A DNA stretch of 59,958 nucleotides, the filler included, from Bipalium vagum (Eukaryota), in NCBI GenBank assembly GCA_037834085.1. It is 3 parts of 3 records of this genome, joined end to end, with 100 filler letters (N's around TTAATTAATTAA, not from the genome) between each part and the next. Parts side by side here need not be neighbours in the genome. Positions count along the whole stretch, not along the records: positions 1 to 21,473 come from JBBMKC010236800.1; 2 more parts are not named here. The stretch is one strand, 5' to 3'. Each line of letters begins with the position of its first letter. Position 1 is the first letter of the stretch. The translations under genes and the position numbers were made by a program. Shown piece by piece: positions 1 through 43,122 of the stretch. The notes beneath the pieces are model-generated. The model did no database searches. It was given only the letters and a program-made list of their open reading frames with translations, and was not told the origin of the DNA.

Positions 1-109
1 TTTGGGATCACAAATGGGATTGTTTAACAGTATTTGTTGTTGTTCCTTTTGCTGCTATCAGAGGTATCGGCTGAGATGGCTTTGATGAATGAACTCCTCG
101 TAGTCTCCA

Positions 110-2875
110 CAAAACCAACAAAATATATTTTTCCAGATCCAGGATCAAAAATAAATTTTACAAATTATAAATATAAATTAAGAATTCCATTTGTAATTTA
201 TGTAGGTATTGAATGCATCAATCAATCAATAAATTAAATAAAATTACAAAGTAATTATCGAGAAATATTATTAAATGAACCAAGCTTTAATCCAATTGAA
301 AAAATAATAATAATAATTATATTATTAATTATAACAAGGTTCTAAATACAAATATAAATATATGTAAAAAATATTTACAAATACATTTATAAAATTTCAA
401 CAAAAACCATTTTGTATATTTTTAGTTTATTTCTTAGTATCCAAATTTAATTGAAAATTCTGAAAATTATTAAAACTAGAAAATTGTGTGAAAGAGTTTT
501 GTAAATGGCTTATAAATTTTCAATCTTATATACAAAATTTATTAAAAACAAATATTCAACATAACTTATCAAAAGAAAAAGAAAAATATGAAAAAAACAA
601 ATTTGTGGTTTTTGTGAAAAAGAAATTTAGGATATAAATGAAAAAGTGATTGGTTATGATAATTATGAATAAAATTATAAAGGTCCTGCACATTCAAATT
701 GTAGCATTCAGGTAAATGCTTCAAAATCTGAACAAATATTTTTTTCATAATGGATTAGGATATTATTTTCATTTAAAAGATTTAGCAGATGAAAATCAAA
801 TTAATGAAAATACCTCAAATCTAAATGATGCATTTAATTTAATTCTAAAAACATATTGAAAATATATTTCATTTACTATTAATAAAACTTTTAAAGTTTT
901 AGACTCCTTAAGATTTCTTTAGATGGAGCAGCAAAACCATTAGATGAAATTGATAAAGAATATTTAAAAGAATTTGCTTGCGAAGATTTTAATTTAAGAA
1001 ATACAAAGGGAATTTATTCATATGAATATTTCACAGATTTTGAAAAATTTAGTGGAATAAAATTATTAACAAAAGAAGTACTTTATTCCATGTTAAATAA
1101 ATCAAATATTTCTGATGAAGAATATGAAAGATATAAAACAGTTTATACAAAGTTTTGTAATAAGTCATTGGAATAATACAATTTTATATTTAAAACAAGA
1201 TGTGATTTTACTAACAGATATTTTTGAAAAATTTAGAAAAAAAAATTAAAAATTAAGATTCTTGCCATTTTGTTTTTAAATCTGGTTTAACATGGCAACT
1301 AGGATTATTAAAAACAAAAATAGAATTAGATTTAATCTCTGATCAAAATATGTTTGAAACATTACAGGTGAAATCTCAGGAATTCTTGGAACTAGGTATA
1401 TTAAAGCTCATAATAAATATACAGAAAAATCAAAGAATTATTTTGAATTAGTTAAATTGGAAAAATATAAAATTCTGAAAAAATTAGAAAAAGGAAGAAA
1501 TTTATCAAAATTTTTAAAACAAATTATTTATTTTATATTGATGAATCATTGTCATATAAAGATTTTAAATATTAATATAATAAAAATTCAAATAGGAAAA
1601 AATTTTATTTTACAGAAGAAGAATATTGAATATTAATTGATCATTTTTTAAATCAATGTGGGTATAAAATTAAGTGTGACTGTAAAAGGGACTGTAAATG
1701 TGAAATAACATTTGGAATAATTTTTGAAGATGATTAAGAATATAAAAATAAAAAAATGAAAAAATATTGTCAATTGTTCCCATTAGCCCCAATTTCTAGA
1801 AAAGTAGAAGATGAAGAATTACCAGATTATCAAAAAGATTTATTAGAAATAAATAATCAAGCTCATACAAAAGTTTCAAAAATAATTTTAGATATGAAAC
1901 CAAAATGAATTATATAGTTCATTATAAATTTTTTAATTTTTTTGAGCTTTATGAAAGTCACAAAAGTTCATTCAAGAATATCTTTTAAACAAAAACCTTG
2001 GTTAAAAGAATATATAGATCACAATACAAATTTAATTGAAAGAAGCAGCAGCTGATTTCAAAAAAGATCATTATAATTAATGAATTATTCTTTCTTTGGA
2101 ATAACTATGGAAAACGTTAGAAAAAGAGTAAGTGTGAAATTATTCATAAAAAAAGAAGAATCAAAGAAACAAATAAGTAAACCAATATTTCTAAGAATAG
2201 AAAAATTTTTTTAAAACTTAATGGCAATTCATTATACAAAGATCAAACAAAAATGGATAAACCAATTTATTTAGAATTTTGTATTTTATAATTATCAAAA
2301 CTAATTATGCATAAATTTTATTATGATATTTTAAAACTAAAATATAATGAAAATATTGAATTAATTTATCAAGATATTGAATCATTTGTATTAATTATAA
2401 AAACAGAAGATCTTTATGAAGATTTAAATGAATTTAAAAATTGGATGGATTTTTCTGAATATAAAGAAAATGAATTCCCTTCTACTTTAAAACTAAAAAA
2501 AGAGGATTATATAAAAAATAAAAAAGTATTAGGAAATTTATAGATGAAATAAAGGGAGAAATATTAATAGAATTTGTAGCATTAAAATCAAAATCATATG
2601 CCTGTTAAACTAAAAAATTTCAAGTAATCAATTAACAAAAAAATATAAAAATAAAGGTATACAAAAATGTGTTTTAAAACAAGAAATGAAGTTAGAGGAT
2701 TTTAAAAATAAATCAATAAATCAAATTATAACAGAAAAAGATTTTTGAATAAATACAAATATTAGATCTGAGAAACATGATATATTTCTTTTACAACAAA
2801 ATAAAAAATCATTGGATCAATTTGATGACAAAAGATTTTAATTAAATAATATTGAATCTACTCCTGAGGATTAAA
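110..2875 (+). pseudogene. Protein-primed family B DNA polymerase (pPolB) of Polinton type, multiply frameshifted
   Basis: Collinear motifs: FTNYKYKLRIPFVIY, CGFC..YKGPAHSNC (endonuclease VII-like Zn finger), FHNGLGY, LDSLRF, KGIYSYEY, DVILLTDIFEKFR, ISFKQKPWLKEYIDHNT, LMNYSFFGITMENVRKR, degenerate motif C YQDIES (normally YxDTDS), EFVALKSKSYA, FDDKRF. Many stops and frameshifts. Confidence 0.92.
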
Positions 2876-3379
2876 AAACATTTAAAAAAATAGACAGATT
2901 TCTAGGCAATAAAAATGTAGTAAAATTTTAAATATTTTAAGAAAATAGTAAATGATTAATTCAAATCTCTTGATGGAAAAAATGTATTTTTTATTTATTT
3001 ATTTCTTGTTTATTTTTTTATAAAATTAAAAGTAATTTCTTTACCTCAGATTTTTAGAAAAATATCAATAAAAGAATGAAATTAAAAACTAAATTAATAA
3101 ATTATAAAAAATATTAAAATTTTTAAAATTATAAAAAATAAAAAAAATCATTTTTTTTCACCTTTGAAAAAACTCCCCTTTTACACTTAAACGTCATTTT
3201 ACCAACCATTTATTCTAATTTTGAAAAATTAAATTTTTTGAAAATTTTTGAAATCTATATTTTGTGATTGGAAATTTTGTGAATTTTTTAAAAAAATTAT
3301 GTTGAAAGATTTTCTGATTTTCAAAATTTTTACAAATTCTTAATGAATTTTTCAATCTTTTTCACCTACACAAATTTTG

Positions 3380-3660
3380 TTACAAAAATTAAAAGAATTT
3401 TTATCTTCTTTGTGAATTTTATTTGATTTTTTCATGGGTACATCATAAGAATAAAAAGATTTAACTTCTAAATCTTGTCTGATTCCATTTAATGTAGAAA
3501 CAGATATTTCAAACTTTTTAGTAATTTTTTCTTGTGTTAAACTAGGATTTCAAATTATTATTTTTGTAAAATGATCTCAGAAATGTAACTTTTCCAATTT
3601 TATAAAATTAGCAGAATTAAAATTGTCAACATTTTCATAAACATCTAAGAAATTACAAAA
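3380..3660 (-). pseudogene. Small helix-turn-helix protein remnant, probably Polinton-encoded
   Basis: Minus-strand translation NPSLTQEKITKKFEISVSTLNGIRQDL fits an HTH pattern. It has internal stops and is convergent with pPolB. Confidence 0.5.
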
Positions 3661-5689
3661 CTACTTTTTTAAAAAATAATTTTCACTTTAAAATAAATTT
3701 AACAATTCAAAATCATTCAAAATTGCTCACTTATATTTTTAAAATACAAAAATTGATCATAAAAATGAAATTGACAAGCGTAAATAAATAATTAATAATT
3801 AAATTTTAAAAAAATCTATGAATGAACAATTGAAAGTGCCTGAATCTCAGTTAATTAAAAAAGAAAAAAGTCAAATGCAGATAAACAGATGAATAGTCAT
3901 AAAAAAGAAAAAACAGAAAAAGACCAACAATTTTAAAAATCTGTAGATACGGATAATTTAGAAATAGCAACCAAAGGAGCTGTCCGGAACTTTTGGTATT
4001 CAAACTAGAATAATGAAATTCCTGAAAGAACGGCATTTGAATAAGGAACTTTCTTTTCTTTCTATTCAGGAAATTATGAAGGAAATGAAGGAAGACTTTC
4101 CTTCTGACATAATAACGCATTTAACATCCGTAAGTAATATTTAATAATAATAATTTAATATTTATTACTTAATGTTAAAATTAAATTTTTAATAATAAAA
4201 TAAAATTTTTCAGTTAATTTTAAGATACATAAAATTGTTATCTCTGTTTAAATTTAACTTTTTACTAATTTTACTTTAATTTGGTGAATTTTTTAGAATA
4301 AATGATATAAACATTAGGAACAAAGTTTATAATTTTTATATTTAATGAAAATATCAGTTTTATATAAAGTACTAAAATTTCAATTTTTGAAAAAATCTTA
4401 GGAATTTGTTAATTTCATTTATAAAAATGAAAAATAAGTTATTCTTAAAAATCAAATAATTATACTTGCACACAAAAAAATATTAAAAAATATTTAAAAA
4501 CTATTTATCAATATTTCAAATTATAATGTTTATAAATTTATTCAAAAATATAATTATATATAATTATTAAATATATTTTTATTGTAGTTCTTTATTAAAA
4601 ATTTGAAACTCGAAATCGAGAATAGCTGCTATCGCTTCAAACCTCGATATCAAATCAGCAATAGACAAGACCTTCTCCACATAGTCAGAACGCAACATTA
4701 CCTTGGTTTCAAGGTTTTTCAAGATGGTGTATTAGAGGCCAATAAGAAAAGATCCGTCTTCATTAAGAAATTAATCAAATATAAAAAAATATGTTCGTTT
4801 GAGACTAAACGGGAACATAAAATTATTCTAACTTATAGGCTAAAGATAATGCCATCAATTGAAAGTAAATATAATTGTAATGTATTTATAATTATTTTTC
4901 TATTTAGATATAGACAGAAAAGTTTAGAAATTTGTATTTTACAACAAAGATTAGCCTGCATGATAGAGAAAGATACAAAAACAGTTCACAAAATGTAGTA
5001 AAAAGAGCTTTCATCAGACCATTGGGATCTAGAACAAAGAATAGGAAAAGACTAGCTGTCATTAAATCAAATACACTTTTGAAGGATCCGTTGATGGATT
5101 ATTAATTTCTTATATTTGGCAAATAAATATATTATTATTATAAATTAAATTTATTTCTTTTCACTGAAAATTAAAATTAAGTAACAGTCAGTTCAAGATT
5201 GATTAAAAAATGGAAGATGGTTTTAAAGTCAACATAAATTGTTAAAAAAGTTTAATCCGATATACTTGTTTTGTCAATTACGCAGTACTTACGCTTAAGT
5301 ATGTAATTAATTAAAAATTAATTCTTGAAACAAACCCAACCTTAACCCTCAAATTTATTATTTTAAAATTTTGGTAGCCATATAAGTAGTTGTATCTCTA
5401 GCATTTGCCGCATCTTTAAAAAAATTTTTTTGCATTCACGTGTGCGTTGCACAGGCTCACTCAAAAAGTATTTTTGGCTGGAAACGTTAGAGATATAAAA
5501 TAAATAAAAATAAGTAAAAATATTTTTTAAAAAATAAGTAACCAAACTTTTTTCAAATCTCCTTTTTTGACGATTTTTTCATCATTTTGATAATTTTTTG
5601 ACTAATAGCACATTTTTAAAAAAGTGAAAAAGATAAGTAAAATAAATACTAAACAAATAAATAGTAAAAAGTAAATAATAAAAAAATAC

Positions 5690-6900
5690 TAAGGTTCGCT
5701 TCTTGAGAGACAGTCTCTAAATGACTTATTATTTGACTTACTATTTGAACTTGTTTGAGGTGCAGGTTGCAGCCTTTGGTTTAGAGGACAAAGTCCTCGC
5801 AAAGCAAACTAGGCTTAGGCTCTAGCACCATTGGTGCGCCTTATTGAAAGCAGGTTAAACCTGCTTTAAATGCAACTTCGTCTTAACTCGCAGACAATAG
5901 TCCGCTGTGAACTGAAGGTTCATCAAACTTGTTTGAGGTGAATTTTAAAACTAATTTCTTCTCCATTAAAGTCTATTAATTCTCTGTTATCACCAGCCAT
6001 CAAATCAACCAGAAATTGGATATTCTAACAGACGCCCAGTGACTATAAAAGCAATTGATAAATCATTCAAATGGAAGAAGGAGAAAACAAAAGCAACCGA
6101 ATCGTGTCAAAAGCAGTTATACCAGATTCAGATTGTATCAACATTTATCCAGACTAGAACTGAGATCATTTAGACGTATCTACGAAGACAAAGAATCAGA
6201 CAAGGTCACCGTTATTCACAGGATCAATCAAGAAAGGAACACTTGTCACCGTTATTCACCGGATCAGTCAAAAAAGGAACACTTGTAAAAAGTTACTTTA
6301 GTTATATGTTTTCTTTATTTTACTATTTCAATTTGACTACATATTGAAAATTGTAAAATATTTAAATAACTCTAACTGCTTATTAAAATCATACCGGAAT
6401 TAAACAATTGGATAGCTCCCCAATTGTTATTCCAACATCAAAATCATCTTTTTATTTTACTTCTTTTTTATTTTTTGCTTCCTCTTCGTCAAGTAGGGCG
6501 GAGGAGCGCATTTTGAACATCGAGGGCTCTTTTAGCAAGGCTTGCAAAGAGCATATCATAACCTTTTACGGGACTTATCATTAATAATTGCGTTATTGTT
6601 TTGAAATTTGGTTTTGTTCGACAAAATATTTTTAAAAGGTTTTGAATCGTTAAAAAATAAAAGTATTTCGATTAAAATTAAAATTTTTTTGATTTGACTT
6701 AGTGAAATACAGTTTTATATTTTATCACAGTCGCATTTTGAGTTATATTTATTAATCGCACATACACGACCATTACCCAGTCGATTTTAAAATAAACATA
6801 TTTATAAACGCAACCTTTCACACAATCTGAACGTTACACTCAATAAAATCCTTCTGATCTTAATACGAGCCCGTTAAGTTTTGGAACGACAGTTAAAATT
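5690..6900 (+). repeat. LTR-like interspersed repeat inserted in the Polinton
   Basis: GC-richer non-coding block with TATA-like CTATAAAA (~6043) and internal duplications. It shares AAGTAGGGCGG and GCAACCTT..TTACAC motifs with 21840-22120. Ends not defined. Confidence 0.45.
6207..6286 (+). repeat. Tandem duplication of a 40-bp unit (2 copies)
   Basis: caccgttattcacaggatcaatcaagaaaggaacacttgt followed by caccgttattcaccggatcagtcaaaaaaggaacacttgt. Confidence 0.9.
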
Positions 6901-6999
6901 GAAATTAATTAAACTATTACCTTTATATTATAATCAAAACTTAACAATAATATAATTTATTTTTTTTTAATGGTACTAGCTTTTTATCATATATTTAAA

Positions 7000-7330
7000 T
7001 TGGTACTCAACTGAATTAGATATTTCCGAAAATTCGTATGCTCCAGGAGTTAGTTTGAAATTTACTTTTTTATTTTTTCCTTATGAATCTGTAATTTCTA
7101 AATCAATTCAATTATTTTTTTCAGTAATATTCAAAATTGAATTATAAGTTGAATAATAAACTAAACCTAATTCATAGTTTACATTGTTTTTAAGTTTTAA
7201 AGGAAAATCTAATCTGAAGTTTATTTCTGAACTTTTACTTTTTACGATAAATGAATTTGAAAATTTTTGAGATAAAAGGTTTGTTATTTTTCTAACGATT
7301 CTGAAGCAATGTTAGTAACACTTGCGTTCA
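7000..7330 (-). pseudogene. Polinton minor capsid (penton) protein, N-terminal part
   Basis: SFIVKSKSSEINFRLDFPLKLKNNVNYELGLVYYSTYNSILNITEKNN...FKLTPGAYEFSEI matches the Polinton mCP N-terminal pattern (YELGL..F.TYNSI.NI...NN...P.GSYE). It is truncated near 7000. Confidence 0.8.
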
Positions 7331-7439
7331 TTTTTAAAATAAAAAAGAAAAATTTATAGATTTTATTTTTTCAAAATATTTTCATAAACCTTTGGTTTAT
7401 TTTTTTTTGCTTTTTTAATTTATTTAAAATTTTTAAAAT

Positions 7440-7880
7440 TATATGATCAAGATCATCATGACCAGCCATTTTGTAGATAAATATTTTCTTAAAGTTATAA
7501 ATTGATGCAACGAAGTTACTGAAATCAGTTTTCTGAGTTTCTTTTACTTTTTGAACAGCTTTTACAACACCATCTGAAACTCCACCAGCTGCTCCTAAAC
7601 CTGCAAAGATAGCACCAAAAATTGGAATTAATGGAAGAACACCACCTTCATGTAATCCTTCAGATTTTTCTTCATAAGTTTGAACACCTTGGGTGTTTGC
7701 AGCTGCGCTGTGATCCTCAATTTTATTAATAATAATTTTTAATAATAATTTTTAATAATATCTTTAATTTGATTAATTATTATTTTAGATAGATAATATT
7801 TTTCTTCCTTGAAAGTAATATACTTAGGTTTTCCTACATCGATTATGTTTTGTAATTTATCCTCAGTGATTTTTTTATTC
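7440..7880 (-). pseudogene. Adenovirus pX-like / Polinton core protein
   Basis: EGGVLPLIPIFGAIFAGLGAAGGVSDGVVKAVQ (~7555-7650) resembles the GGFLPLIP..A..GA..G...V signature of adenovirus pX and related Polinton ORFs. Confidence 0.7.
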
Positions 7881-8079
7881 ATTTTTTTGAAACAAATTTA
7901 ATTTTTCTCATTAATATTTAGAAAAATAACAAAACTGCTTGATGTTTGGATGGTGGTCTCTCTTTCTCAACTCTTTCCTCTTCTTTTCTCCATCAAGCAG
8001 TTCCAAACACCATTCTTTTCAGTGCTAGCACTTTTTTACTTTTTTATTTTCTTTTTATTTATTTATTTTTTGTTTTGTG

Positions 8080-8970
8080 CTAACACTTTTTCAACTTCAT
8101 GTTTAATAATTAAAAACGATGATTTCTGAAGTTCTGAGCTGCAATTCATTTTTATGAAATCTACCCAAAATCTTTTCACCATTTAAATCTATTAGTACAT
8201 AAACAGTCGGATTTGTAAAATAAATTTCATCTATAATAAAAATTACTTCAGACTATTTTGTTGTATATCCTTTTTCAAATTTATTTTAATATTTAAAAAT
8301 TCTTACATGATCACCAATTGATCACCTCTTGCCAGATTTGTTGGTAATTTGGTTTAGGTTAATTGTGAAACGGGAGAAATTTTATCAGTTTTCAATTTTT
8401 CTGGATTAGCCGAAGACTCTAACAACTTCGTTGGATATTTATTTGCTTCATTAGGGGTTATTCCAATTGATCTATGAATTTTATTATTATAAAAATTAAT
8501 TAAGTTTGGTAAAAAATATAAACATTTTCTATTCCCTTGTTCTGTAAATTTTTTGAACATCCTTTTTTAAGAGTTCTATTAATTCTTTCTATAGCAACTG
8601 CTTTTCCTTCATTTTCTGTTGAATAAATTTATATTTCATTATCATCACAAAAATCTTCAAATGTTTTATAGTAAACTTCTGTGCCTTTATCAACCCAAAG
8701 TTTTTCGGGGACCCTATTTGAATCTGTTACTCGAATATTTTATCAGACGCATCTGTAATTGATTGACTTGTTTTATTTTTTAGAGGAACAGCGAAAGCAA
8801 AAAAAGTATATAAATCGATAACTGTTAGAATTATTTTGTAATCTTTTTCTCCTGGAACAAAAGTTAAATTTGCTGACTAAATATCATCCTTATTAACATT
8901 TTAACTTTAAGAAACATTTTTTGAATTTCTAAACTATTTATGAAGTTCATTTGGTAATTGTTCTCTTTTA
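8080..8970 (-). pseudogene. Polinton retroviral-like (rve) integrase with possible C-terminal chromodomain start
   Basis: ELHK..KDDI*SANL, FAFAVPLKNK, PEKLWVDKGTEVY, GKAVAIERINRTLK, YNNKIHRSIGITPNEA, GDHVRI..KFEKGYT, GRFHKNELQ, then HEVEKVLA. Confidence 0.92.
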
Positions 8971-9069
8971 TTTGGTGAGAGAATTTTTGAATTTTCATAA
9001 AGTTTCTCATTAGCGAGCGTCTTCTACGTTCTAACCAAAGGTGCAAGCAACTTTGATTCTCTTGGTAAA

Positions 9070-9450
9070 CCTAATCATATACATATCTTTACTTTCATAA
9101 TTAATTTTACAATTGCTCATTCTAGTTTTTCTCTTGGAGTTGGATTTTGGATGTTGTTCATTTCATGAATTATTTCTACATCTGCAACATGTCTATCTTT
9201 TAAATCTGTTAACATATATTTTACATCATGTTTCATTGCTGCTTGATCTATTCGATTTATTGGAATTGAATCATGTTTTGGAATTGGAGAAATATTTTAA
9301 GTTTTATTTTCTTCATAATTATTTACTATCTCATCATAGTTTTCTAATCTTTTATCTATATGAGTCCTGGCCCAATGAAATTCGCGACCGGATTTGTTTT
9401 ATTAAAAGAATTTAAAGATTTTAAATGAAATTCTCATGGATATTTTCCTG
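9070..9450 (-). pseudogene. Parvovirus-type phospholipase A2 (PLA2X) domain
   Basis: EFHL..NFIGPG/THIDKRL (one frameshift; Ca-binding loop), PINRIDQAAMKHDVKY (catalytic HD at 9225-9230), DRHVADVEI, and C-terminal MKVKICI*LGL. Confidence 0.85.
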
Positions 9451-10769
9451 TTGTAAATTTATTTAAAAATTTGTTGTTTGTTACAGCTTCACAAAATTAG
9501 TGACTATTTTATTCTAAAAAATATTCAACATCATAAGCAAAAATAAAAAGTATTTTTTCAAATTACATATATTTATTAACATTTTAAGCCAAATTTTAAG
9601 TTACGAATTAGGTAATATTTACGAATTGATAATATTAAAGTTAAATAAACACCAAATCGATTATTAAACACTGAATTGGATCAATCGAAATATAAATCAA
9701 ACACTGACTCGAATTATTAACTAAGAAAAAAAATTTTATTAAATATATTTTTAATAAATTTGACAATAAGATTTATAATTACAATTAAAATTTGTGATGA
9801 AATCCGGAGAAGAAGGTTAACTTAAGACATTATTACATTAATTAATTAATAACCTATAATCCGTAAAAGAATGATAGTTTTTAATTTTGTATTTTTATTT
9901 AATAATCGGTTCAATGTGAAACTAAAAGTTCATTATTAATTATATTTAAATATTTAGTAATAAGTTATTATAGATTTAAAATCAAATCTAATAAACAGAG
10001 AAATAAAATATTTTTACTATTTTGATAATTGGAGTCGATTTCTGTTTCCTTTCTCCTTGCATCTACGTAGTAGCAATTGTTTTCATCTACTTGCTTCTTT
10101 GGTTAAACTTTTAGTGATATATTTTGCGTCCTCTTCCTGATTTGTTTTTGGTCGTTTTCAAACTGAAAAGCTTTAGAAATTATGTTATCTTATTTTTTGT
10201 ATTTTCTAAAGTTTGTAACCTAATGTTACTATTTTTAGATTTTACTTAAAAATTTGTTACTATAAATTTTGTACTTAAACTTTATTTAAAATTTTAGTTA
10301 AATAATTATTTATACAGACTCTATGTTACTGATTAATTTTTCCAAATTAATAATCGAAATTATTACTTTTTAATTATCATAATAATAATATAAAGGATAC
10401 AAGGATTTTAGGTGTCTACGGGTTTTAACTTTTACAATAAAAACAACAAACAAAACTACACAAAATTATATTTTTTATGCATAATAACAAAAAAATTTTT
10501 CATAATTATTTTTCCCTTTAATGCATTTTCATAATCAATTAAATCAGTTTTTACTGCTTTATTTATTCCCTTCATTCTGTTTAGTTTGCCAAGGACACGA
10601 ATTTAAAGGTTATTTGAAATCTTTTTATTGCTTTTGAAAAAAGAAATTTGATCAAATGTAAAATTCGGAAATGTTGGGATTGACAATAGCAAATCATTTA
10701 TTTATATTGACCATCATAAGAATCCAGTGCATATGGTCACTGACCCTAAAAATATATAACCACTATATA

Positions 10770-11410
10770 TACTGCCAGTCAATATTTTTCGCACTGTAAG
10801 TATAATACAATATTAAAAAAATAAGTAAGAGTTAGAAAATTGATACTTTCAGTAATAAATGTTAAACTTCAATAAATTGTTATTGTGAAATAAATTTAAT
10901 ATTTATGTAATTTTTTGAATAATATAAGTAGTAATAAAAATTTTCAAAATTTTAAAAGTGGACAAATTTTTTCGCACAGATAAATATTTTAGTATTTATA
11001 AAAAACAGAATTATTTCAGACATGGTTTATGATGGACCACAATTTAACAATCTGATATTATCCAATCACAGATATTATCCATATAATAAACAATGAAAAA
11101 AGACAAAAAATAATTGATTTATATGGATCACTGAGAGCTCGTTTTAACTTCCAAAGGGAATTTGTACAATGTGTAATATTTTGTTAATAAATAAAAGGTG
11201 TGCGAAAAATTTTGTCCTTTTTTAATTTTCAGTATTTGAATTTCTTAACTTTATATATATATTACAAACATTATTTTAAGATTACTTACTTAAAATTTAC
11301 ATAACTAATGTATATTACTAAATATCGCTTATGGATAGATTTCATTTCATTCACACAGTAACAAAATTCATATAAAATAGTAACTGCGCGAAAATTTTTA
11401 TCCGGCAGTA
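10770..11410. mobile_element. Non-autonomous Tc1-like element with IR-DR architecture
   Basis: Flanked by TA. Outer IR tactgccagtcaatatttttcgcac vs (rc) tactgccggataaaaattttcgcgc. Inner IR ggacaaattttttcgcaca (10960-10978) vs tgtgcgaaaaattttgtcc (11199-11217). Confidence 0.8.
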
Positions 11411-12926: not shown

Positions 12927-13254
12927 TTGGTCGTCTATTTTTAGACGAAGACCTTTTAAGTATTTGAGTTGGTTTGATGTATTCTCTGCTGTAGACTTTG
13001 TGGCTTTAGAACCATCAAATGAAGCCTAATATTTAACCAGGTTAATTTATGACGATCACGTAATCATCCATAAATGAAAACCTATAACTTTTTATCGTAA
13101 TTATTATTAAATTGTTTTTCAAAATTAATGTTTAAAAATTATTTTAATTAAGATATATAATATTTCGAATTTAGTTAATTATTAGTTTTTAGGATTTTAA
13201 GTTAAAGACCAACTCCAATACGTAAAAGATCTTCGTTTAAAAATAGATGACCAA
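12927..13254. mobile_element. MITE-like element with ~50-bp terminal inverted repeats
   Basis: ttggtcgtctatttttagacgaagaccttttaagtatttgagttggt vs rc of right end ttggtcatctatttttaaacgaagatcttttacgtattggagttggt. Confidence 0.8.
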
Positions 13255-13503: not shown

Positions 13504-16404
13504 TCATTTAGATAACAGTGATATGGAATAGGAACGACCGTTGGGATTGTGAATTGCAGTGATCTCTGGTTGAGTGCAGGCCCACTCATACCAAACCGCG
13601 TGATTGTTACTGACTCTCCAAATATGGAATTTTAAAATTGACTCGGCTTTCACTTGAATCGGTTTGATGACAGGGAATACTATCGGGAACCAGGAAAACA
13701 TGTCTGGAGAATGCCAATCAGGGTGAATACCTTTAATTTGGTAAGAGATATGATCAAAAATTCTTTTTAAAAATCGTTTTATAGGCTTACTCATGGTTAT
13801 GTCTTTATAAAGAATGCAATGAAAAAATCCAGCGAATCCATGGATTACACCGTCTTCCTTGATTTCAAATTGAATGGCCTCGTATCTATCATTTGACTGC
13901 GTTAAATCCTTTCTGGGATGGTTGAACGTGAATACTGGTTGAACTGGGGCCAACAAGTGACAATTCAATAATCTCACAACATAAGGAGTTTCCATAGAGG
14001 CCTGAAAATCATTTTTAGTAATTTAATAAAATTAATTCCTTTTTCAAGATATTAAATATTCTGTTTTACTAATTTCTAATCTCATTCATTTTTTAATCAA
14101 TAAATATATAAAATATCATTCAAATACTGATATTTTTAAATAAACAAAAATAAAATTATATACATGATCTTTGATTCTATTACTTCAATTCATTTAAATT
14201 AATTAATAATGCTTACATATTTATTCTTTTTTACACATCTAGGTGCCTTTTGGTTACTCATAAACGAATACAGCTTTGTGGATTGCAAAGGAGCGATATA
14301 AGAGGTATAACTAGATGGAATCGAAATTCCACCTGGTTTCAGAAAATGTTGAGCCCCATCAAGACATTCTGGACTAAGTTCATTGTCCCCGAACGATCCC
14401 AGAAGTTCGCTAATAAAAATATCGGCTTTGGTAGGCAAAGTGACTTCTCTCATATCACCGGGAAATAACTCCACGTCTCGATCGACCCAATCTTTTTTTA
14501 CCCTCTTTGTTAGATATGAAACAGCGTTAGGGTTCTTTTCCACAATATAAATTTTCACATCACAGTTGGCTTTGTCAGCCGCTCGCAGAGCTGAGTCAAC
14601 CAACGGACCACGACCAGCTCCAAGAACCATTATTGCTACTTTTTCTTCTTCTAATGTCACAACATCTGAGCCACCGATTACACTGACAAATGTCTTTGTA
14701 TCGACTTTTTCTGTTTTGACTTTTTTTCGTCTCTCAACGACATCATTGATGGCCAACACCGTGGCTTTTTCGTACGCATCGTACTTGTATGGATCCAGCT
14801 CAAAGATCGAATACGTGGAACTGGGTAAGTGATCAGCTAGTGGCTGGAGAGGATCTTGCAAAAAATCTTCCATGTCTTTACTGTGCTTTTCATACGCTGT
14901 CATCGGGTCGCGATTTGTCCACAGCCATGTGAGATATTGTCGGTAAGACAAGTAACCGTGGGGATTGGAAACATCACCGGACACGACAACTTGTATTTTC
15001 ATCTGAGGTTCGATAATAAATAGTTTAAGAATTTAGTGAAAGAAAATACCTTGAAAAATCGATTTATCAATTGTTGACATGCTGTCGATAATACTGGATA
15101 TCCTTTCTTGTTTGTCAGAAATCGATCGGTTTTAATTTCCAGTGCTGCAATCGGTTCCGAGTACCAATGATTAATTACATTCTCTGACATGTCGCATTTT
15201 GGAATCGTCAACATAAGTTTGAAATTATGGATGGAATCTCCAAGTAAAATTGAGAACTCGCGCCACCAATCCAATGGCGTATTTTCTATATCTATTTTTG
15301 GCAAAAATTGGTTACAACAATATTATAAACGAAACAATTACCTTTGTTCCCGTTGATGCAATCAAATTCGCTTTCGTAGCACATTGGTATTCCTATCCAA
15401 ACCTAATGAAAAATTTGAATTTATGGAAAATGAATTTAAATGTTATTTTAAAAAATCTTACTCTAAAGGAAATATAATCATTTGACATGAAACTTGCTAA
15501 TACTCGTGCTAAGTTAGCATTGTTTCCTTTAGTCAGTCTGATAAGCACAGCTGGAAATCCTTGATAGGATGCCCATTCTAATTCCTCTATTAGAGCCTTT
15601 AAAAAAATTATCGTGTGGTTTTATAAATATTTATTTTACTTTTTCCGATGTTTTGCGAAAACTTGGAAGATGATGATCCAAGTCTATCCATGATGATGTT
15701 TTGGCCACAAGTCCATTAATTATCGACGAGTCTGAATAAAAATTAATAAGGAAACGAAATATAAAATATCAAGCATGCTAAATTTTATTATACCACTGTT
15801 CAATATTTTGTCAGTTCTAGAGAAAGTCTATTCGATTGAACAGAAAAATGTAAGCTTGCTTTTCTTAAATTTCAGTTAATATCAACTGATAACAATATTT
15901 TACTTCATCAAACAAAGCTAATTAATAATCATCTATATGTAAAATTAAAAGGCTAATTTATGTTTAACTCATGTTATGCTTATTAAGAATTTAAATAAAA
16001 TTTTGTTTCTTAGATTTTATATATAAAAAATAATTTCAAATAAAGAACGTTAAGAGCACTATTATTGTAACACTAAAATTATTCATTCAGAAAAAATTAA
16101 ATAAGCACGTGGCTCCACAAGATCAATAAAACTAATTAAGGCCTTATGTAAAATATTCAATCCTTACTATTGGTTTGTAGGAAGTTAAGTCCAGATGATT
16201 TTTCAGTTCTTGAATCAATATCAATATTTGAGTTAAACCTTTCAGAACCTTTATAGATATCAGCGAAAATAAAACCGTACCTAAATACAACTTAGTTTAA
16301 GATTTTATCAACTTAATCTACCCTAAAGAGCACGCCCATCTGTGATCATCTTCAATATTTTCGACTAACTGAATATCAGCTCCAAACAATGATTTTACGT
16401 TCAT
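13504..16404 (-). CDS. PRMT5: Protein arginine N-methyltransferase 5 (multi-exon)
   Basis: ATG at 16404. TIM-barrel exons (FSRTDKIL, AKTSSWIDLD, EELEWASY, FLTNKKGYPVLS), Rossmann fold (PLQPLADHL..TY.IFE.DPYKY, MVLGAGRGPLV, SELLGSFGDNELSPECLDGAQ) and beta-barrel (HGFAGFF, MFSWFPI, HNPNGRSYSI). GT-AG introns, e.g. 16281-16321, 15003-15049, 14002-14216, 13731-13790. Confidence 0.97.
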
Positions 16405-18454
16405 CGTGAATTTTAAATTATAAATTACTTAAAACAAATTAAGCTAAAATGGTTAATATAAATTTTATTTACATATCTTTTATTAAAAATATTATAGTAT
16501 AAATTCTCTTTATACATTAATTGTAATATGAACAATTTAGAAATAGAATTTTTTCGATGTTTTTATGTCAATAATAAAAATAAATTTATCAAAAGTATAT
16601 TTTCAAATTATATTTGTAGAAATCTGATAAATTACAAAAAACAATATATTGCTATGTAGTGGCAGCTAATTCTAGTGTTAATTAACTAATGATTCCAAAA
16701 CCAATGAATAGGAAGTTTGAAATCATGCGTTTATTTCAGAGTAGATGTTTACTATGGAATATGGTGTTTAAAATTTTCTTTCTTTTAAGTCTTCGCCCGC
16801 CTCTTAGAATGTTGCTCGCGAATATCAGTCTTTCCTTTGATATCAGAATGCTCAATTTATTGGTTTGGTTATCCTGGTGTGGGGCTTGTACACTGATCAA
16901 TCTAAATGATTTTATTTTCCTCACATTATTCTATTGATAGGATTCTCAAATATGTTGGGTTTTGGAGCAATAATAATGGTAATAGTAATTATACTAATAT
17001 TGAAAATAATAATTAGTAGTAATAATAAAAATTAATTATATTACTTTATTTGGAAAGTTAATAATAATAATAATTTCTAATTATTAATAATAATAATGAT
17101 AATAATAATAATAATTTTTTTATTAATAATAATATTTTTTTTATTAATAATAATAATTTTTTAAATAGATTTTTTTCGTGTCATTTTTATAATGACAAAA
17201 TCCCGCTGTGGGATTATTTTTTGATGAAGCTAATGGATTCCTATTGGACCCTATGACCTCTAGGGTAATTTTGAAATCTATCTCCGGAAGACTTTGATTG
17301 AATCAATTCAAAAAGATCACAATTGAATGAAGATAGGGAAGTTCATTTAGCATTTCAAGACTTTACTTAACAAGCTATTATATCTTTTAAATGATAGTAT
17401 GACCAAAGTAAACTGCTCATAGACATGGTTTTCTACAAGGCTGTGCATAATTTCCGTTCCTGCTTCATTTTTAGAATGAGTCATTCCATAAAAACCATGT
17501 CTCGAAAATCCTCGCAGAACAGAATCAGTAGGCAACACGGGATTCAATCTGATTATTTGTCGTTCACTGTTTTTCATTGTGAGATTATCGGAATTCCAAT
17601 GAAACAGAATCATGTAGAACCACGTAAGACAATACAATGATTATTACAATGGCAATATAAGACTGATTTTAAAAAAAAGCATTGTCTTTATAAACAATCA
17701 TGATTTTGGGCCCTAAAGAGGACCTTATTTCGTTCTCAAAATTTAACTTACAAAAATTAATGTATATTAACAAAAGGTGACCATGAAAAAATCAGGCACC
17801 TAGTTTATATATTAACCGACTAGATAAACAAAAGTGACCCTGGGAGTATGAGAACGGAATTTTAACCCAAAAGGATTTTTTAAATGATACTATCACAAAA
17901 ATAACAAATGATAATGAATACCTTTATAAATCAATAAATAATATTAAAATTAAATTAAAAAGTTTATTTGCAGTTGATAATTATAAAAACATGTATGAAA
18001 AAATTACACCTATAGTCTGTTGGTATTCTTCTTGGAAATTTTCAACAGTAGATATTATAAATTCCAAAAACTTGTAAATCAATTTAACAAAGTTAGGATA
18101 TTTGGTTGGAGAAAATTCTTTTTTCAAAAAGAGAATTTACAAAAATATTAATTGCTGACAAAAGTTAATACATTATCAACAATGTTATAAATTTTGGAAA
18201 GAGTTTCATAATGCACTACAAAGTGGTTTTATAATAAATGAAAAACCTTCAATAGATTTTAATATACAACCTATTTTACCATCTTTAACTTTGGATTTAA
18301 ATACTTCTAATTTAACGAAATCCATTACTCCATCAATTATAGGTAACACATTAATAATAAATAAAATCCCAGTTTTAATTATTAAAGAAAAAGAAATAGC
18401 ATTTTTAAAGTATAGTAATCCAAATGATCCAAAATCAGATAAATTTTATAATTC

Positions 18455-19720
18455 TTTCCCCATTCGCATTTTGTGGGTTTTATTATAAAACCTGCTATTT
18501 TAATCCTCTTTAACACTTCTTCCATGTCTCTCATATGTGTTTCAAAATCTGGGGAAAAAACGATGATGTCATCTATATATACCATGGCATGAGCAATATA
18601 TATTAACATGAGATTTATAGCTCTTTGAAATGTTGCAGGTGCTTCTTTAAGACCGAATGGCATGTTGTTAAATTCATACAAGCCATTTTCAGTTATAAAT
18701 GCTGTTGCTTCTCGTGATTGCTCGGCTACTTTGATGTTTATATAACCTGATTGTAGGTCAGTTGTGGTAAACAGTTTTAGCTGTCCTCAATCACTGGAAG
18801 TAAGTAGTTATCTTTTACGGTGACTTCGTTCAGTTTAAGGTTATCGATGCATACATGCCATTCACCACACTTCTTTTTTACTTCTATCGTTGGTGAAGAC
18901 CAGGGTGATGAACTGGGGCTGATAATACCTGTTTCTAGCCAGTAAGCTATTTGCTTATCCGCCTCTGGTTTTAAAGTGTGCGGGGTACGGTAAGCACGTT
19001 GGTTAATTGGTTGTGGATTGGTGATGCGTATTTCGTGTTGTAAGATATTGGATGTGCCGACATCAAATTCATGTTTAGCAAATGCATCTCAATAAATTCT
19101 TAACAACTGGATAAATTGCTTTTGTTGAATGCATGTAAGGGTAGGTGTAGTGACTTGAACCGGTCCATAGATATTTTTGGCTGGAGTTGTAGTATCTGTG
19201 TGTGGAACATATTCATTAATAGTTCCCACTCTCATACCTTGATGTATTTTTCGTGGCAGTGTCAAAATTTTTTATTCATGTGGGGATTCGGTTACGATTT
19301 ACTACAGCCAAGGTTGCTTGTGTTGTTAAAGTGTTGCTCTTAACAAATCTCTCCGATTGTTCAAAAATCATCTCTTGTCCATTCGGCAGATTTGTATCTA
19401 GTATGAATATTTGTTCATGTCGTTTATGGCTTTGTCTAGAACAATAGCTATGTGATCTTCATTTCTTACCGCATTTTTATATCGTCTTGGGTGTATCTTG
19501 TATTTGTATCTTCATATACAATCCTGCAGAATGATGAATCCTTTTCTGTCTACCACAGCTGGACTCAAAATTTGTAATTTTTGGTGCATATCGTTGATTT
19601 GCTGACAGTAACTGTTGGACGCTGAACTGTTTTGTTCACGCTTCCTATGCCCCATACTGCATTAATATTTAGTGCTGTTTCCGCAGCGCTTCTGCTTAAC
19701 TTGAACTCATAAAAATATAT
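18455..19720 (-). mobile_element. Degenerate Ty3/Gypsy LTR retrotransposon fragment (gag remnant plus reverse transcriptase)
   Basis: QPINQRAYRTP, GIISPSSSPWSSP, TDLQSGY, TAFITENGLYEFNNMPFGLKEAPATFQR, VYIDDIIVFS, IKPTKCEW. It is truncated after RT, and the gag part is weakly supported. Confidence 0.9.
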
Positions 19721-20292: not shown

Positions 20293-21473
20293 AGTAATTT
20301 TAAGGAGTAAGATAAATTTAATAAATGATATAATGAATAGAAACGTTTTTAATTAGTACAATGATTAACTGAAAATACCGGAACAATGATAATAGCCATC
20401 TCCTTGTAAACGATAACTGTTTGGCAAATCTATATTTTCTCCTCTTTTTTCTTTTCTTCTGGGTGGCATTCTTGAAATAGCCATCTCTATATAGTCGTAC
20501 AGATTGTTCTACAATTAATAATCCCTACGCTTTGAGACGCTTATTTCCTTCAATAGCCCATTATTTTAATTTTATCTCCACCCCGAGATGAAGTTAGTGA
20601 AATAATTAGAATTCATTGACCCGACGGCGGGACACAACTTATAAAAGAATCAAATCATCAATATCATATTCCTCAAATATATCAAAATTTCGACTATAAA
20701 TATAATTTTTATCATTCACCATCTTAGCGGTTTGTGCCTTTGAAAAACCCAACACTTGATATACACTTGTGGAGACTCCCACCTACTGACCAACCAATTC
20801 AAAACCCTTCAAAAACTTCGATCCCAAAGCAATCCAAATCTTCGAAACAATAACATTATTGATTTTAAACATTTTAGTGATTATTTAGTAATTCATTTGA
20901 TGTATAAAAAACAATATATAATTTGTGTAATTTTATTTATTTATTTATTTGTAAAAGTTAAAACCCGGAATTTGATTTTAATAATTCTCTTTCTCGTCTG
21001 TTTAATATCAAAATATAAAATAGAATATAAAATATAAAACAAAATAATAAAATAATAAATATAAAATATAAAAATTAGTATCATTATAATTAATTTAAAA
21101 AATAATCATTTTGATGATTAATTTATATAATATTTAGAAAAAATTGTTTAGAAATAAAAAGTTACTATAAATAATTTTTTCAGTAAAAATTTTAATCAAT
21201 GTTACTATAAATAAATTTATAAGGAGAAATTTTAACTGAAAATCTAAAAATAGTAACACAGAGTTACTATAATTAAAAATATAAAAAAATAAAATAATAT
21301 AAATACTGAAGTATTTCAGTAGTGACACATAAAAAATAGTCACAAGAAGGACAATAATAAATACGAAAAACAGTTGGAAGCAATAAAGCGGTCAGGAAGA
21401 AAACCCGAAGAATTCCAGAGAAAAGCAGAACAATTATCAGCCATATTTGGGGACATTTCTCAATCCTATTCGA

Positions 21474-21573
21474 NNNNNNNNNNNNNNNNNNNNNNNNNNN
21501 NNNNNNNNNNNNNNNNNTTAATTAATTAANNNNNNNNNNNNNNNNNNNNNNNNNNNNNNNNNNNNNNNNNNNN
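21474..21573. other. Artificial contig-joining spacer
   Basis: N44-TTAATTAATTAA-N44, exactly 100 bp, with stop codons in all six frames. Confidence 0.97.
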
Positions 21574-23958: not shown

Positions 23959-26900
23959 TCACCCGTTACCTTTTCTGATATAAACCTCCAGAAGACGAGC
24001 CTGAAAAACAATATATCAATTGACTGGAAAATTCAAAATTCTATTTCCATTTTCAAAATCAGTTTAAATTTAAGAGATACAAATTTAAAAAATGGTTCTC
24101 AAGTATGCAAAATATTTTTTACTTTGATTATAATAATAATCAATAATTACTAAAATGGTAAATATTAATTTTAAAAAATTCTGATAAAAGAATTATTAAT
24201 AATTAGGAATATAAATATATACTAATTAATAAAAAAATCAATAACACTAAAAAATTCCTAAAAATTAAATTATAATAAAAAACTAATTATGAAAAAAAAT
24301 AATAAAAATAATATTTAATTAATAGGTAAAAATTAAAACCCTAAATATTACTTTTAATTTTTTATATCGATGACGTAAATTAATAAATCTAAATTTTTTT
24401 AAAAAAAAACCAAAATTTATCAAAAAATAAAAACTCAAAGATTCATTTTAAATAATCAATACAAAAAAATTATAAATTAAGATAATAAATAAATATAAAA
24501 AAACTAAGAATAATGAAATAATCAATAAATCTTAACATTAACTAATAAAATTAATAATGAATAGTTATTAATTAATAACTCAAATAAAAATGTCAAAAAA
24601 TAATAATTATAAATTATGTGATGAAATAAATAAATCAAAACAATAAATAAATAAATTTTTACTTGTGAATTATTTAACTTTAAAAGTGTCCAAATGTCAT
24701 CACGAATAATTTTGTGCAATTCAACCATACAAAGAACTGATTCTTTTCTGACTTGACTTTCTTTATGGTTCACCACCTATTCGGAAAAAAGACCATTACC
24801 TGAGATTAATCACAAATAAAAAGGTCTTGTACTATCGATAATGCTTGACATAAACTGATCACATCAGCCTCGATTGAATTGCGATTTGAATTTTTAATAA
24901 GCTTGATCAACATTTTCAAAGCCGGCAAGCATAACTGGTTTTCCGATCCATCAGAGATGACATCGATCAGCATTTTGAGGCACACTTTACGTGGCATTGT
25001 TGACGTCAACACTCGACTACATTCTTCAGCAGCTTTGATTACAGATTTTTCCGAATCTTTGTGAGCTTCAAGAACTTTCAAAATCGTCAATTGGGTATAT
25101 TCCATAAATCGAGGAGCTTGACTTTTTGCCAATTCTTGTAAGACTCTTAACGATTGCGCTCGGATGTCGGACTGTAGGTTTAGTGAAAAGGTTAATAATT
25201 TACAATAATAAACAAAAATCAAATATTATAAATCAAAACAAAATATCATTTTTCAAATCAATAATAATAAAACTGTTATTATTGAAATTAGTAATAATAA
25301 AATAAATTAATGGAAAACATTAAAAAATGTTATTATATTTTAAATACAGCTTTACAATAGCAAAAGTCTGCAAAAATTAATTCGAAAACAAAATATAATC
25401 TCTCACATGAATCAAATAGATTGGGAGTTCAAATAACAATTTCTTAAGTGAAAAATATTGATCGAAAAGAAAATCTAAGAAATTATATTTCGAAATGTAA
25501 ACATTATGAAATGTAAAAAGTTCAAAAGGAAAACACTTACCGAAACATAGTAGAAACAGCTTATAAAGGACAATACAAAAAAATCAAGAAAACCCCAATG
25601 TGAAAATTACCCGTATCAATTCTTAAAAAATGGAAATTAATTTCTCCCTAGGGTTTTAATAAAATGATAATTAAATTTTTTCCTTTTCCCAATTTTACAA
25701 AAATTAGATAATAATTACAGAAAAATGAGGAATGTTTGTACTTAAAATGAAAGGTCAAATGTACAGATTATTTTTTATTTATTATTCCAATGTTATTATT
25801 TATATAAAGTTAGAAAAGCAACAATAATTTAAGAAAAAAATTGATTATTATTGAATTAGGTTGGAAAATATTAAAAATAAATCAAATAAAAATTCCACCC
25901 TGGAGGTTACAGCCATTTCCTAATATATGAAAATGTTTTGAATCTTAATAAATTTTAAAAGAATAACATAAAATAACACTGTAAAAATAAAAAAGATCAG
26001 AATAAATTTTTTATCAATAATCAAAATAAATTGATTAATATTAATATTATTATTATTACCAAAACCGATATCAAGATTTTCCAAAAACTTTTCGTTTTAT
26101 TACGACAGAATAATCGCAATAATACAGTCCCTAACAAAATGTACCAACTTATTACAATATCCATTGGCATTTCACTTATCGAAAAAACATTATTCTTATT
26201 CAACTAATTGTTTCGATAACAATGAAACATGAATCAATTTTTAATATTTTCTCGTCGGATTCTATTGATAGTTTAACGTTCACACGTTATTATTATTATT
26301 ATTCAGTGATTAAGAGAAAAAGAAATATTTTTATTAAATGTATATAAAAAGATCTGTAATCAAAGTATCGAGAGAAGACAAATAATATTTAGGTTCTTCT
26401 TTTCTAATTTATATTAACAAGATTTATGTCCAAAATGTCAACAGAAAATATTTTTAGTATAAATACAATGATTAAAATCGCCAATTATTTATAAATATTT
26501 GTGAACTTTAAGAAAAATCAATTTGAAATATTTATATCAATATTTTAATCAGAGTCAATAAAAATAAAGTTCAGTTCAATTTTATAATATTATATTGGAG
26601 AAATTTTTAATTTTGAACTCAAATCCCCGGGGAATAGGAAAAGCAAATCAATCTCCATGACCATTTTTTAAATAATTATGAGGAAAAAAATCCATAAAAT
26701 CAATAGTAAACAAACTTTTATTTTCTGATGTTCTAAATTAACCTAAATTGAATCAAATAAGTTCACAGTATTTTAACAAAATCAATCAAAATTAATTAAT
26801 AATAAACTCTTCAAGTAAATACCTCATTATCTCCCATGGTTTCCAGTAACAGAAAGAGTAATGTTTTAAAATGTTCATCCCAATCAGTTGGTGTATTTTC

Positions 26901-41509: not shown

Positions 41510-41609
41510 NNNNNNNNNNNNNNNNNNNNNNNNNNNNNNNNNNNNNNNNNNNNTTAATTAATTAANNNNNNNNNNNNNNNNNNNNNNNNNNNNNNNNNNN
41601 NNNNNNNNN
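41510..41609. other. Artificial contig-joining spacer
   Basis: N44-TTAATTAATTAA-N44, identical to the first spacer. Confidence 0.97.
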
Positions 41610-42498: not shown

Positions 42499-43122
42499 TT
42501 AGGTATAACGTCTATTGATTATGCATTTCATTTTTGAAATTTGTGCTGTTGTTTATATGAAGTACTATTTGGGCGCTATATACATCGTATAATTAAAAAC
42601 AACACGTTTGCCTCTATGAGGAGATTTGTGCTCAAAAAGCGCTGCTGTCTTGTTAAAATTCGTGTTAAAGTATTATATTATCCGGTGCACAAATCACTGG
42701 AAAAGTTATCCTAACATGATATTTTATGGAAACAGTTTTTTTCTATATCTTGAATACTTTCCTAATGTTTGCACAGATTTGTTGCACAAAATAGTTTCAG
42801 TGTTGTTAAATAATGAATTCAGGCCACCTTTTGGCAGGAAGGTAATATTGGTACATGACAATCTCCGGCATCATGTTGTAAAACAATATAACAAGAACAT
42901 TAAAAATCTGAGATGGAATGAAATATATCTCCTCCAGAATTATGTGTCTATATGATTGGATTTTCTGGAAAACCTCAATTGTTCTATGATGAATTCATAA
43001 ATTTGACAAAACATTTGAAAATGGTTCTATTAATGAGGGAAGTTATTGGTGAGAAATATCTGCTTTGATTACACTCAATATCCATGCATTTTTAACTAAA
43101 CAAAAGTCGAAGTCATATTTGT
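42499..43122 (+). mobile_element. Degenerate mariner remnant
   Basis: VILVHDNLRHHVVK...LRWNE resembles LLHDNARPHVA..LGWE. The 3' end ...TTGTGTACCTAATA resembles a mariner TIR. Confidence 0.6.

What the first reader, a model, noticed from the sequence alone, without database searches (positions are those of the whole stretch)
110..9450. Endogenous adintovirus-like Polinton with virion genes in an AT-rich invertebrate genome
Seen: pPolB on + converging on a minus-strand cassette PLA2-INT > pX-like > penton > (gap) > HTH. The ORF track shows almost none of this because every gene is broken. Known: penton, pX-like and PLA2 genes mark virion-forming Polintons. Inference: this is a fossil of a dsDNA virus lineage of this host, and intact relatives may exist elsewhere in the genome.
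Basis: partly seen in the sequence, partly recalled or inferred. Interest (0 to 1): 0.72.

Follow-up and report, generated by a model that had tools for sequence, protein, structure and literature searches.

The report
Decayed Polinton virus relic in planarian
This stretch is the broken remnant of a virus-like jumping element of a well-known kind (Polinton/Maverick) in a planarian flatworm; its only unusual points are an integrase fused to a phospholipase domain and a spliced, host-type transcription-factor gene lying in its middle.

Summary
The gene calls are right. A protein-primed DNA polymerase (+, ~50-2850) faces PLA2-integrase, pX-like and penton genes (-, 9490-5926). All are broken (35 lesions in pPolB, 18 in PLA2-INT). 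The host is a triclad planarian, where Mavericks are known and abundant. The same gene families are linked in intact viral contigs (pPolB+INT+PLA2+penton in 6 of 33). Major capsid, ATPase and protease were not found in the window, so this copy cannot form virions.

(1) The 'gap' holds a spliced TFIIE-beta-like gene (3818-5105), so the cassette is not continuous.
(2) The penton's middle is replaced by ~1 kb of unrelated DNA.
(3) The HTH is unverified and has no homologue in relatives.
(4) PLA2 is fused to the integrase, not to pX as in described adintoviruses. This fusion forms one clade of 22 database proteins that I did not find in print.

Whether TFIIE-beta is a live host gene between two relics or a decayed passenger of one element could not be settled, because no genome is held. 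Verdict: a real but ordinary fossil, with a minor new gene architecture.

The parts
47..2850 (+). [quoted passage not shown]
   Evidence: 14 frameshifts, 21 stops; a relative's model matches bidnavirus and adintovirus PolB best; relatives hit PF03175 and/or PF02945
3352..3549 (-). Open 65-codon frame with a helix-turn-helix-like look; not shown to belong to the element
   Evidence: Atlas leads only, 0.80-0.84; no Pfam hit; no homologue
3818..5105 (+). Spliced TFIIE-beta (GTF2E2)-like gene: exons about 3968-4129, 4588-4864 and 4918-5105; the 5' part (3818-3995) is uncertain, with apparent frame changes and a stop
   Evidence: Two exons hit adjacent residues of PDB 1d8j TFIIE-beta (10-41, E 1.1; 60-80, E 0.61); GT-AG phases give 208 open codons; exon GC 0.30-0.32 against intron 0.12, strong donors at 4130 and 4865; no Pfam TFIIE hit
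5748..5940 (.). Exact 15-bp direct repeat (5748-5762 and 5926-5940) around a 163-bp GC-rich, hairpin-rich insert at the penton's 3' end; probably a small later insertion with target-site duplication
   Evidence: D20; fold z = -4.5, 0 of 200 shuffles; no Rfam match
5926..5991 (-). Penton (minor capsid) last 22 codons
   Evidence: 18 of 24 full-length homologues align here; score 57.8 against shuffled maximum 21.8
5995..7005 (.). About 1 kb of unassigned DNA replacing the penton middle; holds a 40-bp tandem duplication (6205-6286)
   Evidence: Middle penton columns score at shuffle level; no Pfam hit
7006..7300 (-). Penton N-terminal ~98 codons (two stops)
   Evidence: 43 homologues; fold of homologue P0091 matches mavirus and adenovirus pentons
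7366..7501 (-). C-terminal tail of a conserved unknown gene that precedes the penton in relative L003; here it follows pX directly, which implies an internal deletion that removed the ATPase
   Evidence: 0 of 100 shuffles; best hit of that profile in the window, E 0.09; gene order of L003
7524..7880 (-). pX-like (adenovirus mu/protein X-like) gene, 5' part, one frameshift
   Evidence: relatives hit Adeno_PX weakly
8003..8101 (-). Probable chromodomain remnant directly after the integrase
   Evidence: Score 30.1, 0 of 100 shuffles; no Pfam hit
8139..9490 (-). PLA2-integrase fusion pseudogene (PLA2 domain about 9266-9087)
   Evidence: closest intact relative P0001 is 43-68% identical per segment and aligns in one piece across PLA2, linker and integrase start

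Best explanation
The region is the decayed, incomplete relic of a Polinton/Maverick of the Alpha-adintovirus-like kind that integrated into a planarian germline. Shown: the pPolB, PLA2-INT, pX-like and penton pseudogenes, their linkage in intact relatives, and no detectable capsid, ATPase or protease gene in the window. From established knowledge: the ancestor integrated with its rve integrase, copied itself with the protein-primed polymerase and probably packaged into a double-jelly-roll virion. Inferred: in this lineage the PLA2 gene, which lies just upstream of INT in relatives L039 and L046, fused to INT, so a membrane-lytic domain rides on the integrase, perhaps packaged with the genome and used at entry. 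Also inferred: after integration the copy lost its capsid and ATPase genes by deletion and gathered insertions. I favour one original element (about 60%) into which an intron-bearing TFIIE-beta copy came by capture, later insertion or local rearrangement, over two relics flanking a live host gene (about 35%). Today the viral genes are inert.
For: Profile scores far above shuffles. The two intact contigs that carry PLA2 directly before INT (L039, L046) rank 1st and 3rd for the window's pPolB and 1st and 2nd for INT and for PLA2 among the 33 pPolB-bearing viral loci. L010 links an integrase of the fused clade to this pPolB type. L003 has PLA2-INT, capsid (PF21738, E 4e-28), pX, A32 ATPase, the unknown gene and penton, and the window keeps the same order with gaps. 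The two halves have complementary genes and a similar decay density (about 1 lesion per 80 and per 75 bp; arithmetic). No other Polinton fragment lies in the 60 kb. The lesions are not assembly noise: an 834-codon protocadherin exon is open and 7 of 8 PRMT5 alignments are stop-free, the eighth crossing an intron.
Against: No terminal inverted repeat or target-site duplication was found, and the left end lies outside the window. The fusion was not found on the same contig as a pPolB (0 of 33 loci; L010's integrase is cut before its PLA2 part). The TFIIE-beta core is open over 208 codons, where about 8 lesions would be expected at the viral rate; this fits a gene under selection and so two separate relics. 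The nearest intact relatives are only about 30-40% identical in pPolB, so gene order is borrowed from distant kin. The role of the PLA2 domain is inference only.
Confidence: 0.8

Rival explanations
1. Two independent Polinton relics of the same or related families landed on either side of the live, single-copy host TFIIE-beta gene; the 'cassette' is a chance juxtaposition in a Maverick-rich genome.
For: The TFIIE-beta core is open with canonical splice sites and its long intron is host-like (GC 0.12). Mavericks are expanded in Dugesia (passages of 10.64898/2025.12.11.693146). The region is gene-dense (PRMT5 lies 8 kb away).
Against: The halves are complementary, equally decayed and point to the same relatives, and no other fragment lies in 60 kb. 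The first ~180 bp of the TFIIE-beta reading shows apparent frame changes and a stop, and the protein gives no Pfam TFIIE hit at E<=1, which is odd for a working orthologue.
Confidence: 0.35
2. The element carried the spliced TFIIE-beta gene as cargo while it was still mobile, and the gene served or steered transcription of viral genes.
For: The gene lies between two convergent viral blocks, is strongly diverged and is damaged at its 5' end. Nematode Mavericks carry intron-bearing cargo (passages of 10.1101/2022.07.12.499685). Unchecked notes of this scan report Mavericks with TBP/TFIIB and a spliced Bcl-2 in a flatworm Polinton (leads only).
Against: No translated alignment with any fetched locus was found in this stretch, and a viral-contig scan found no relative. 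The gene is much less decayed than the viral genes. In nematodes cargo sits between the TIR and the integrase, not in the middle.
Confidence: 0.2
3. The stops and frameshifts are assembly errors and the element is intact or recent.
For: Many lesions sit in A/T runs (seen directly). The one listed run held only 53% of the sampled words.
Against: Neighbouring host exons are clean. There are 33 in-frame stops besides the frameshifts, and whole genes are missing or interrupted.
Confidence: 0.03

Closest known systems
Alpha adintoviruses (Starrett et al. 2021, PMC8502044; Mayetiola class) and insect Mavericks such as Sf Maverick 1/2 (PMC5803895)
   Same: Bidnavirus-related pPolB; an endonuclease-VII-like insert as listed for the Sf Mavericks; rve integrase with a probable chromodomain remnant; parvovirus-like PLA2; pX-like gene; single-jelly-roll penton. 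Degraded germline copies are stated to be widespread in animals (abstract).
   Different: PLA2 is fused to the N-terminus of the integrase and pX is a separate gene, whereas the described form is PLA2X (PLA2 plus pX). Hexon, ATPase and adenain were not found in this copy. Alpha placement rests on the bidnavirus link and shared gene families, not on a direct comparison with the Mayetiola reference.
Polintons/Mavericks of planarians (Schmidtea: PMC8532177; Dugesia: 10.64898/2025.12.11.693146)
   Same: Same host group and element class; known piRNA targets in Schmidtea, expanded in Dugesia (passages).
   Different: The passages I read give no gene-level anatomy, so whether they are this family was not tested.
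Unnamed intact relatives L003, L005, L006 (metagenome contigs) and L039, L046 (IMG/VR contigs)
   Same: L003, L005 and L006 carry the PLA2-INT fusion, pX and ATPase; L003 also carries capsid and penton in the window's order. L039 and L046 carry the most similar pPolB with PLA2 directly upstream of INT.
   Different: They are intact and 30-55% identical. The fused relatives end without a chromodomain, while the window seems to keep a remnant. None showed a TFIIE-beta-like gene.

Membership tests
Polinton/Maverick | [quoted passage not shown] | tested here: met
   (pseudogene)
Polinton/Maverick | Retrovirus-like (rve) integrase | tested here: met
   (pseudogene)
Polinton/Maverick | Terminal inverted repeats and 6-bp target-site duplication (recalled definition) | tested here: inconclusive
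   None found; the left end is outside the window
Polinton/Maverick | Minor capsid (penton) | tested here: met
   split by ~1 kb of foreign DNA
Polinton/Maverick (virion-forming) | Double-jelly-roll major capsid, packaging ATPase, adenovirus-like protease | tested here: not met
   Best window hits E 0.65, 0.34 and 0.6 with profiles of 6, 10 and 4 relatives; present in 8, 22 and 16 of 33 relatives. A weak ATPase-like score at 8101-7901 (3 of 100 shuffles) overlaps the chromodomain remnant and was not accepted
Adintovirus (Starrett 2021; Buck 2024 definition) | PolB with N-terminal OTU-like domain | not testable with these tools
   The N-terminal part lies left of the window and no genome is held
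Adintovirus | Hexon reciprocally recognisable by BLASTp | tested here: not met
   No capsid gene detected in the window; so this copy is not filed as a member
Adintovirus | Integrase with C-terminal chromodomain | tested here: inconclusive
   Remnant at 8101-8003, 0 of 100 shuffles, but E 1 in the whole-window search and no Pfam hit
Alpha adintovirus virion module | PLA2X (PLA2 with C-terminal pX) | tested here: not met
   PLA2 is fused to INT and pX is separate; PLA2X is seen in relatives L044, L049, L063 and L065
Alpha adintovirus | Alpha-class (bidnavirus-related) PolB | tested here: inconclusive
   A relative's model ranks bidnavirus-like and adintovirus PolBs first (E 1e-40 to 1e-34, only 15-23% identity); relatives hit PF03175 modestly or not at all; not compared with the reference sequences
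TFIIE-beta (GTF2E2) | Winged-helix core homologous to human TFIIE-beta | tested here: inconclusive
   Two colinear weak PDB hits (E 1.1 and 0.61), the only protein common to both searches of 177,635 sequences; no Pfam hit; the last exon gave no PDB hit

The most novel reading that the evidence does not exclude
A planarian Polinton lineage with a PLA2-integrase fusion captured an intron-bearing TFIIE-beta gene as cargo while mobile, so that a small integrating DNA virus carried its own RNA polymerase II general transcription factor.
Probability: 0.2. Interest if true: 0.7.

Novelty: new variant of a known kind. Interest (0 to 1): 0.36.

Why it matters
As a fossil it matters little: degraded adintovirus-like sequences are common in animals and Mavericks are abundant in planarians. 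Two side results have some value. The PLA2-integrase fusion marks a clade of at least 22 unnamed database proteins, with unfused PLA2-then-INT relatives that suggest how it arose; it predicts that the integrase is a virion protein with a role at entry, which can be tested on an intact natural protein. If the TFIIE-beta copy proves to be cargo, it would add a Pol II initiation factor to the known Maverick cargo; if it is the live host gene, it has virus relics within a few hundred bases on both sides.

Tried and rejected
Genome-wide search: impossible, no genome held. Read mapping on the one listed run was not obtained, so other copies and the lesions were not checked on reads; no RNA holder was listed. 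Whole-frame Pfam scans found only PLA2 in 1 of 18 frames. Viral-contig scans with single queries found nothing useful. The prokaryote-genome scan gave 7 plain-integrase contigs, not used further. A major capsid start at 6070-6200, suspected by eye, was rejected. A penton middle hidden by frameshifts or introns was rejected. An ATPase remnant between INT and pX was not accepted (E 0.03 with a 3-sequence profile; not among the best three hits with 10 sequences). GC-rich hairpins as a family trait were rejected: relatives show no excess. A structured-RNA family for the 163-bp insert: no Rfam match. My first guess that the polymerase is Beta-class was dropped. PARP1, JetB and galectin hits in the PDB searches were each seen for one exon only and treated as chance. 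The integrase tree is the quick version; the careful search did not finish, 1 of 64 rows was dropped for a short core, and the window's own sequence was not in it. Literature: searches for a PLA2-integrase fusion, for TFIIE with Polinton or planarian and for adintovirus with planarian found no description. The library lacks most subscription papers and Repbase, and the Starrett supplement was held only as one cut file, so its protein sets and maps may show the fusion.
Full report
Observation. The region is about 19-29% GC per kb and has no long ORF. Six-frame translation shows short motifs of a polymerase on + and of PLA2, integrase, pX and penton on -. Because every viral gene is broken, I searched single frames with stops as X, collected intact relatives and mapped them back onto the window.

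Polymerase. A search with part of one frame gave 9 proteins among 5088 candidates. They align in many pieces and changing frames from about 400 to 2860. A frameshift-aware profile alignment spans 47-2850, score 649 against a shuffled maximum of 31 (8 shuffles), with 14 frameshifts and 21 stops; about the first 250 of 1087 columns fall left of the window. A model of a relative (L010, pLDDT 76) matches bidnavirus-like and adintovirus PolBs best. Starrett et al. tie bidnavirus similarity to Alpha PolB (PMC8502044, parts 1-2 of 6 read). Relatives carry an endonuclease-VII-like insert, as Sf Mavericks do (PMC5803895, passages). Alpha placement is probable, not shown.

PLA2-integrase. The search gave 49 proteins among 1884 candidates, and 21 of 49 carry both PF00665 and PF08398. 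The closest, P0001, aligns at 9487-8127, in one piece across PLA2, linker and integrase start, so the fusion is real in the window too. The gene has 6 frameshifts and 12 stops. In a quick tree of 63 intact integrase cores, all 22 motif-defined fused proteins fall in one clade (SH-aLRT 92) together with the L010 integrase, which is linked to this pPolB type; 7 rows without the motif also lie inside. Two intact viral contigs (L039, L046) have a separate PLA2 gene directly upstream of INT on the same strand, a likely pre-fusion state (inference). A chromodomain-like remnant follows the integrase (0 of 100 shuffles), although the fused relatives lack one.

Structural genes. The penton piece found 43 homologues. 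Of 24 full-length ones, all align to about 7300-7000 and 18 also to the last codons at 5991-5926; the middle is not detectable in the ~1 kb between. A homologue folds like mavirus and adenovirus pentons. The pX-like gene (7864-7524) and the tail of a conserved unknown gene (7501-7366) beat all shuffles. Metagenome contig L003 has PLA2-INT, capsid, pX, ATPase, that unknown gene and penton. The window keeps this order without capsid and ATPase, which points to deletions. Profiles of capsid, ATPase and protease found nothing in the 60 kb (best E 0.65, 0.34, 0.6). The HTH could not be tied to the element.

Linkage. Among 33 viral contigs with this pPolB type, 23 have INT, 10 PLA2, 18 penton, 8 capsid, 22 ATPase and 16 protease; 6 have pPolB, INT, PLA2 and penton together, and none has the fusion. 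The loci are cut at 10 kb flanks, so these counts are lower bounds. L039 and L046 rank 1st and 3rd for the window's pPolB and 1st and 2nd for its INT and PLA2 among these loci. Both halves of the window thus point to the same subgroup.

Host. The neighbouring PRMT5 is 75% identical to Schmidtea mediterranea and 55% or less to all other listed hits, so the host is a triclad planarian. Polintons are piRNA targets in Schmidtea (PMC8532177, passages) and expanded in Dugesia (10.64898/2025.12.11.693146, passages). Host exons nearby are clean, so the lesions are real decay.

The gap holds a spliced gene on +. Two exons each hit human TFIIE-beta weakly, at adjacent residues of one chain (1d8j 10-41, E 1.1; 60-80, E 0.61). 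It is the only protein common to both searches. I had recognised the gene from memory before running them. Canonical GT-AG junctions give 208 open codons ending at 5105 (the last acceptor was chosen among five candidates), and GC content and strong donors match these exons. Against a simple reading as a live gene: there is no Pfam TFIIE hit, the last exon has no PDB hit, and the coding-like stretch 3818-3995 seems to change frame twice and holds a stop, unless it is intron. For a live gene: about 8 lesions would be expected in the core at the viral rate and none is seen. One element with a nested copy (captured, inserted or rearranged in) and two relics around a live gene both remain open. Intron-bearing Maverick cargo is known in nematodes (10.1101/2022.07.12.499685, passages). 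Unchecked notes of this scan mention TBP/TFIIB and Bcl-2 cargo; they raised my odds on cargo a little and are not evidence.

Mechanism. Shown: an inert, incomplete relic. From established knowledge (PMC4028283 and PMC6431247, passages): the ancestor integrated by its rve integrase, replicated by protein priming and encoded jelly-roll virion proteins. Inferred: the PLA2 on the integrase acted at membrane entry, like the parvovirus VP1 domain; after integration, deletions removed capsid and ATPase, and insertions split the penton and added a 163-bp piece between 15-bp direct repeats.

Comparison and novelty. It derives from, and once worked like, an Alpha-adintovirus-type Polinton. It is not filed as an adintovirus, because the hexon was not found and the OTU domain could not be tested (definition in PMC11071296, section 16 read). 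It differs from the described PLA2X form. I found no description of a PLA2-integrase fusion (passages of PMC3671162, PMC11071308, 10.1101/2023.08.22.554363 with section 8, and 10.64898/2026.10.13.758929). The library is incomplete and the Starrett supplement was cut.

Verdict. A real fossil of a known class in a host group where it is expected, with a small new architecture and one open question about the nested TFIIE-beta gene. Interest 0.36.

Noticed in passing
window 13504-16404 (-): Intact spliced PRMT5 gene, 54-79% identical per exon to Schmidtea mediterranea.
   Followed up: yes
window 53099-55603 (-): Open 834-codon protocadherin-like exon with five cadherin repeats.
   Followed up: partly
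window 18382-19199 (-): Broken Ty3/gypsy-like reverse transcriptase fragment (Pfam RVT_1, E 8e-22).
   Followed up: partly
window 10162-10482 and 20900-21320: Two inverted copies of a ~320-bp dispersed repeat, about 71-81% identical.
   Followed up: no
window 10952-11225 and 12927-13254: Two MITE-like pieces with 27-bp and 47-bp terminal inverted repeats, each 89% complementary.
   Followed up: no
window 42620-42955 (+) and 47794-48282 (-): Frames that look like mariner transposase remnants (name from recall, not tested).
   Followed up: no
window about 24800-39400 (-): Exons that look like a CLASP-type HEAT-repeat gene (name from recall, not tested).
   Followed up: no
window 21474-21573 and 41510-41609: Assembly gaps of 100 bases with a 12-base all-frame-stop spacer in the middle; a scaffolding artefact that makes a false inverted repeat.
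   Followed up: no
L020 (14,284 bp): Metagenome contig that joins this pPolB type and an integrase with chromodomain to virion-like genes unrelated to the L003 capsid and penton profiles; may be a virophage-like hybrid.
   Followed up: no
L071-L076: Polinton-type integrase, penton and ATPase genes on contigs filed in bacterial MAGs; probably mis-binned eukaryotic virus DNA.
   Followed up: no
L039:8011-8532 and L046:2150-2845: Stand-alone PLA2 genes with an N-terminal DUF5679 domain directly upstream of the integrase; fused relatives such as L003 have a zinc-finger-like start instead.
   Followed up: partly
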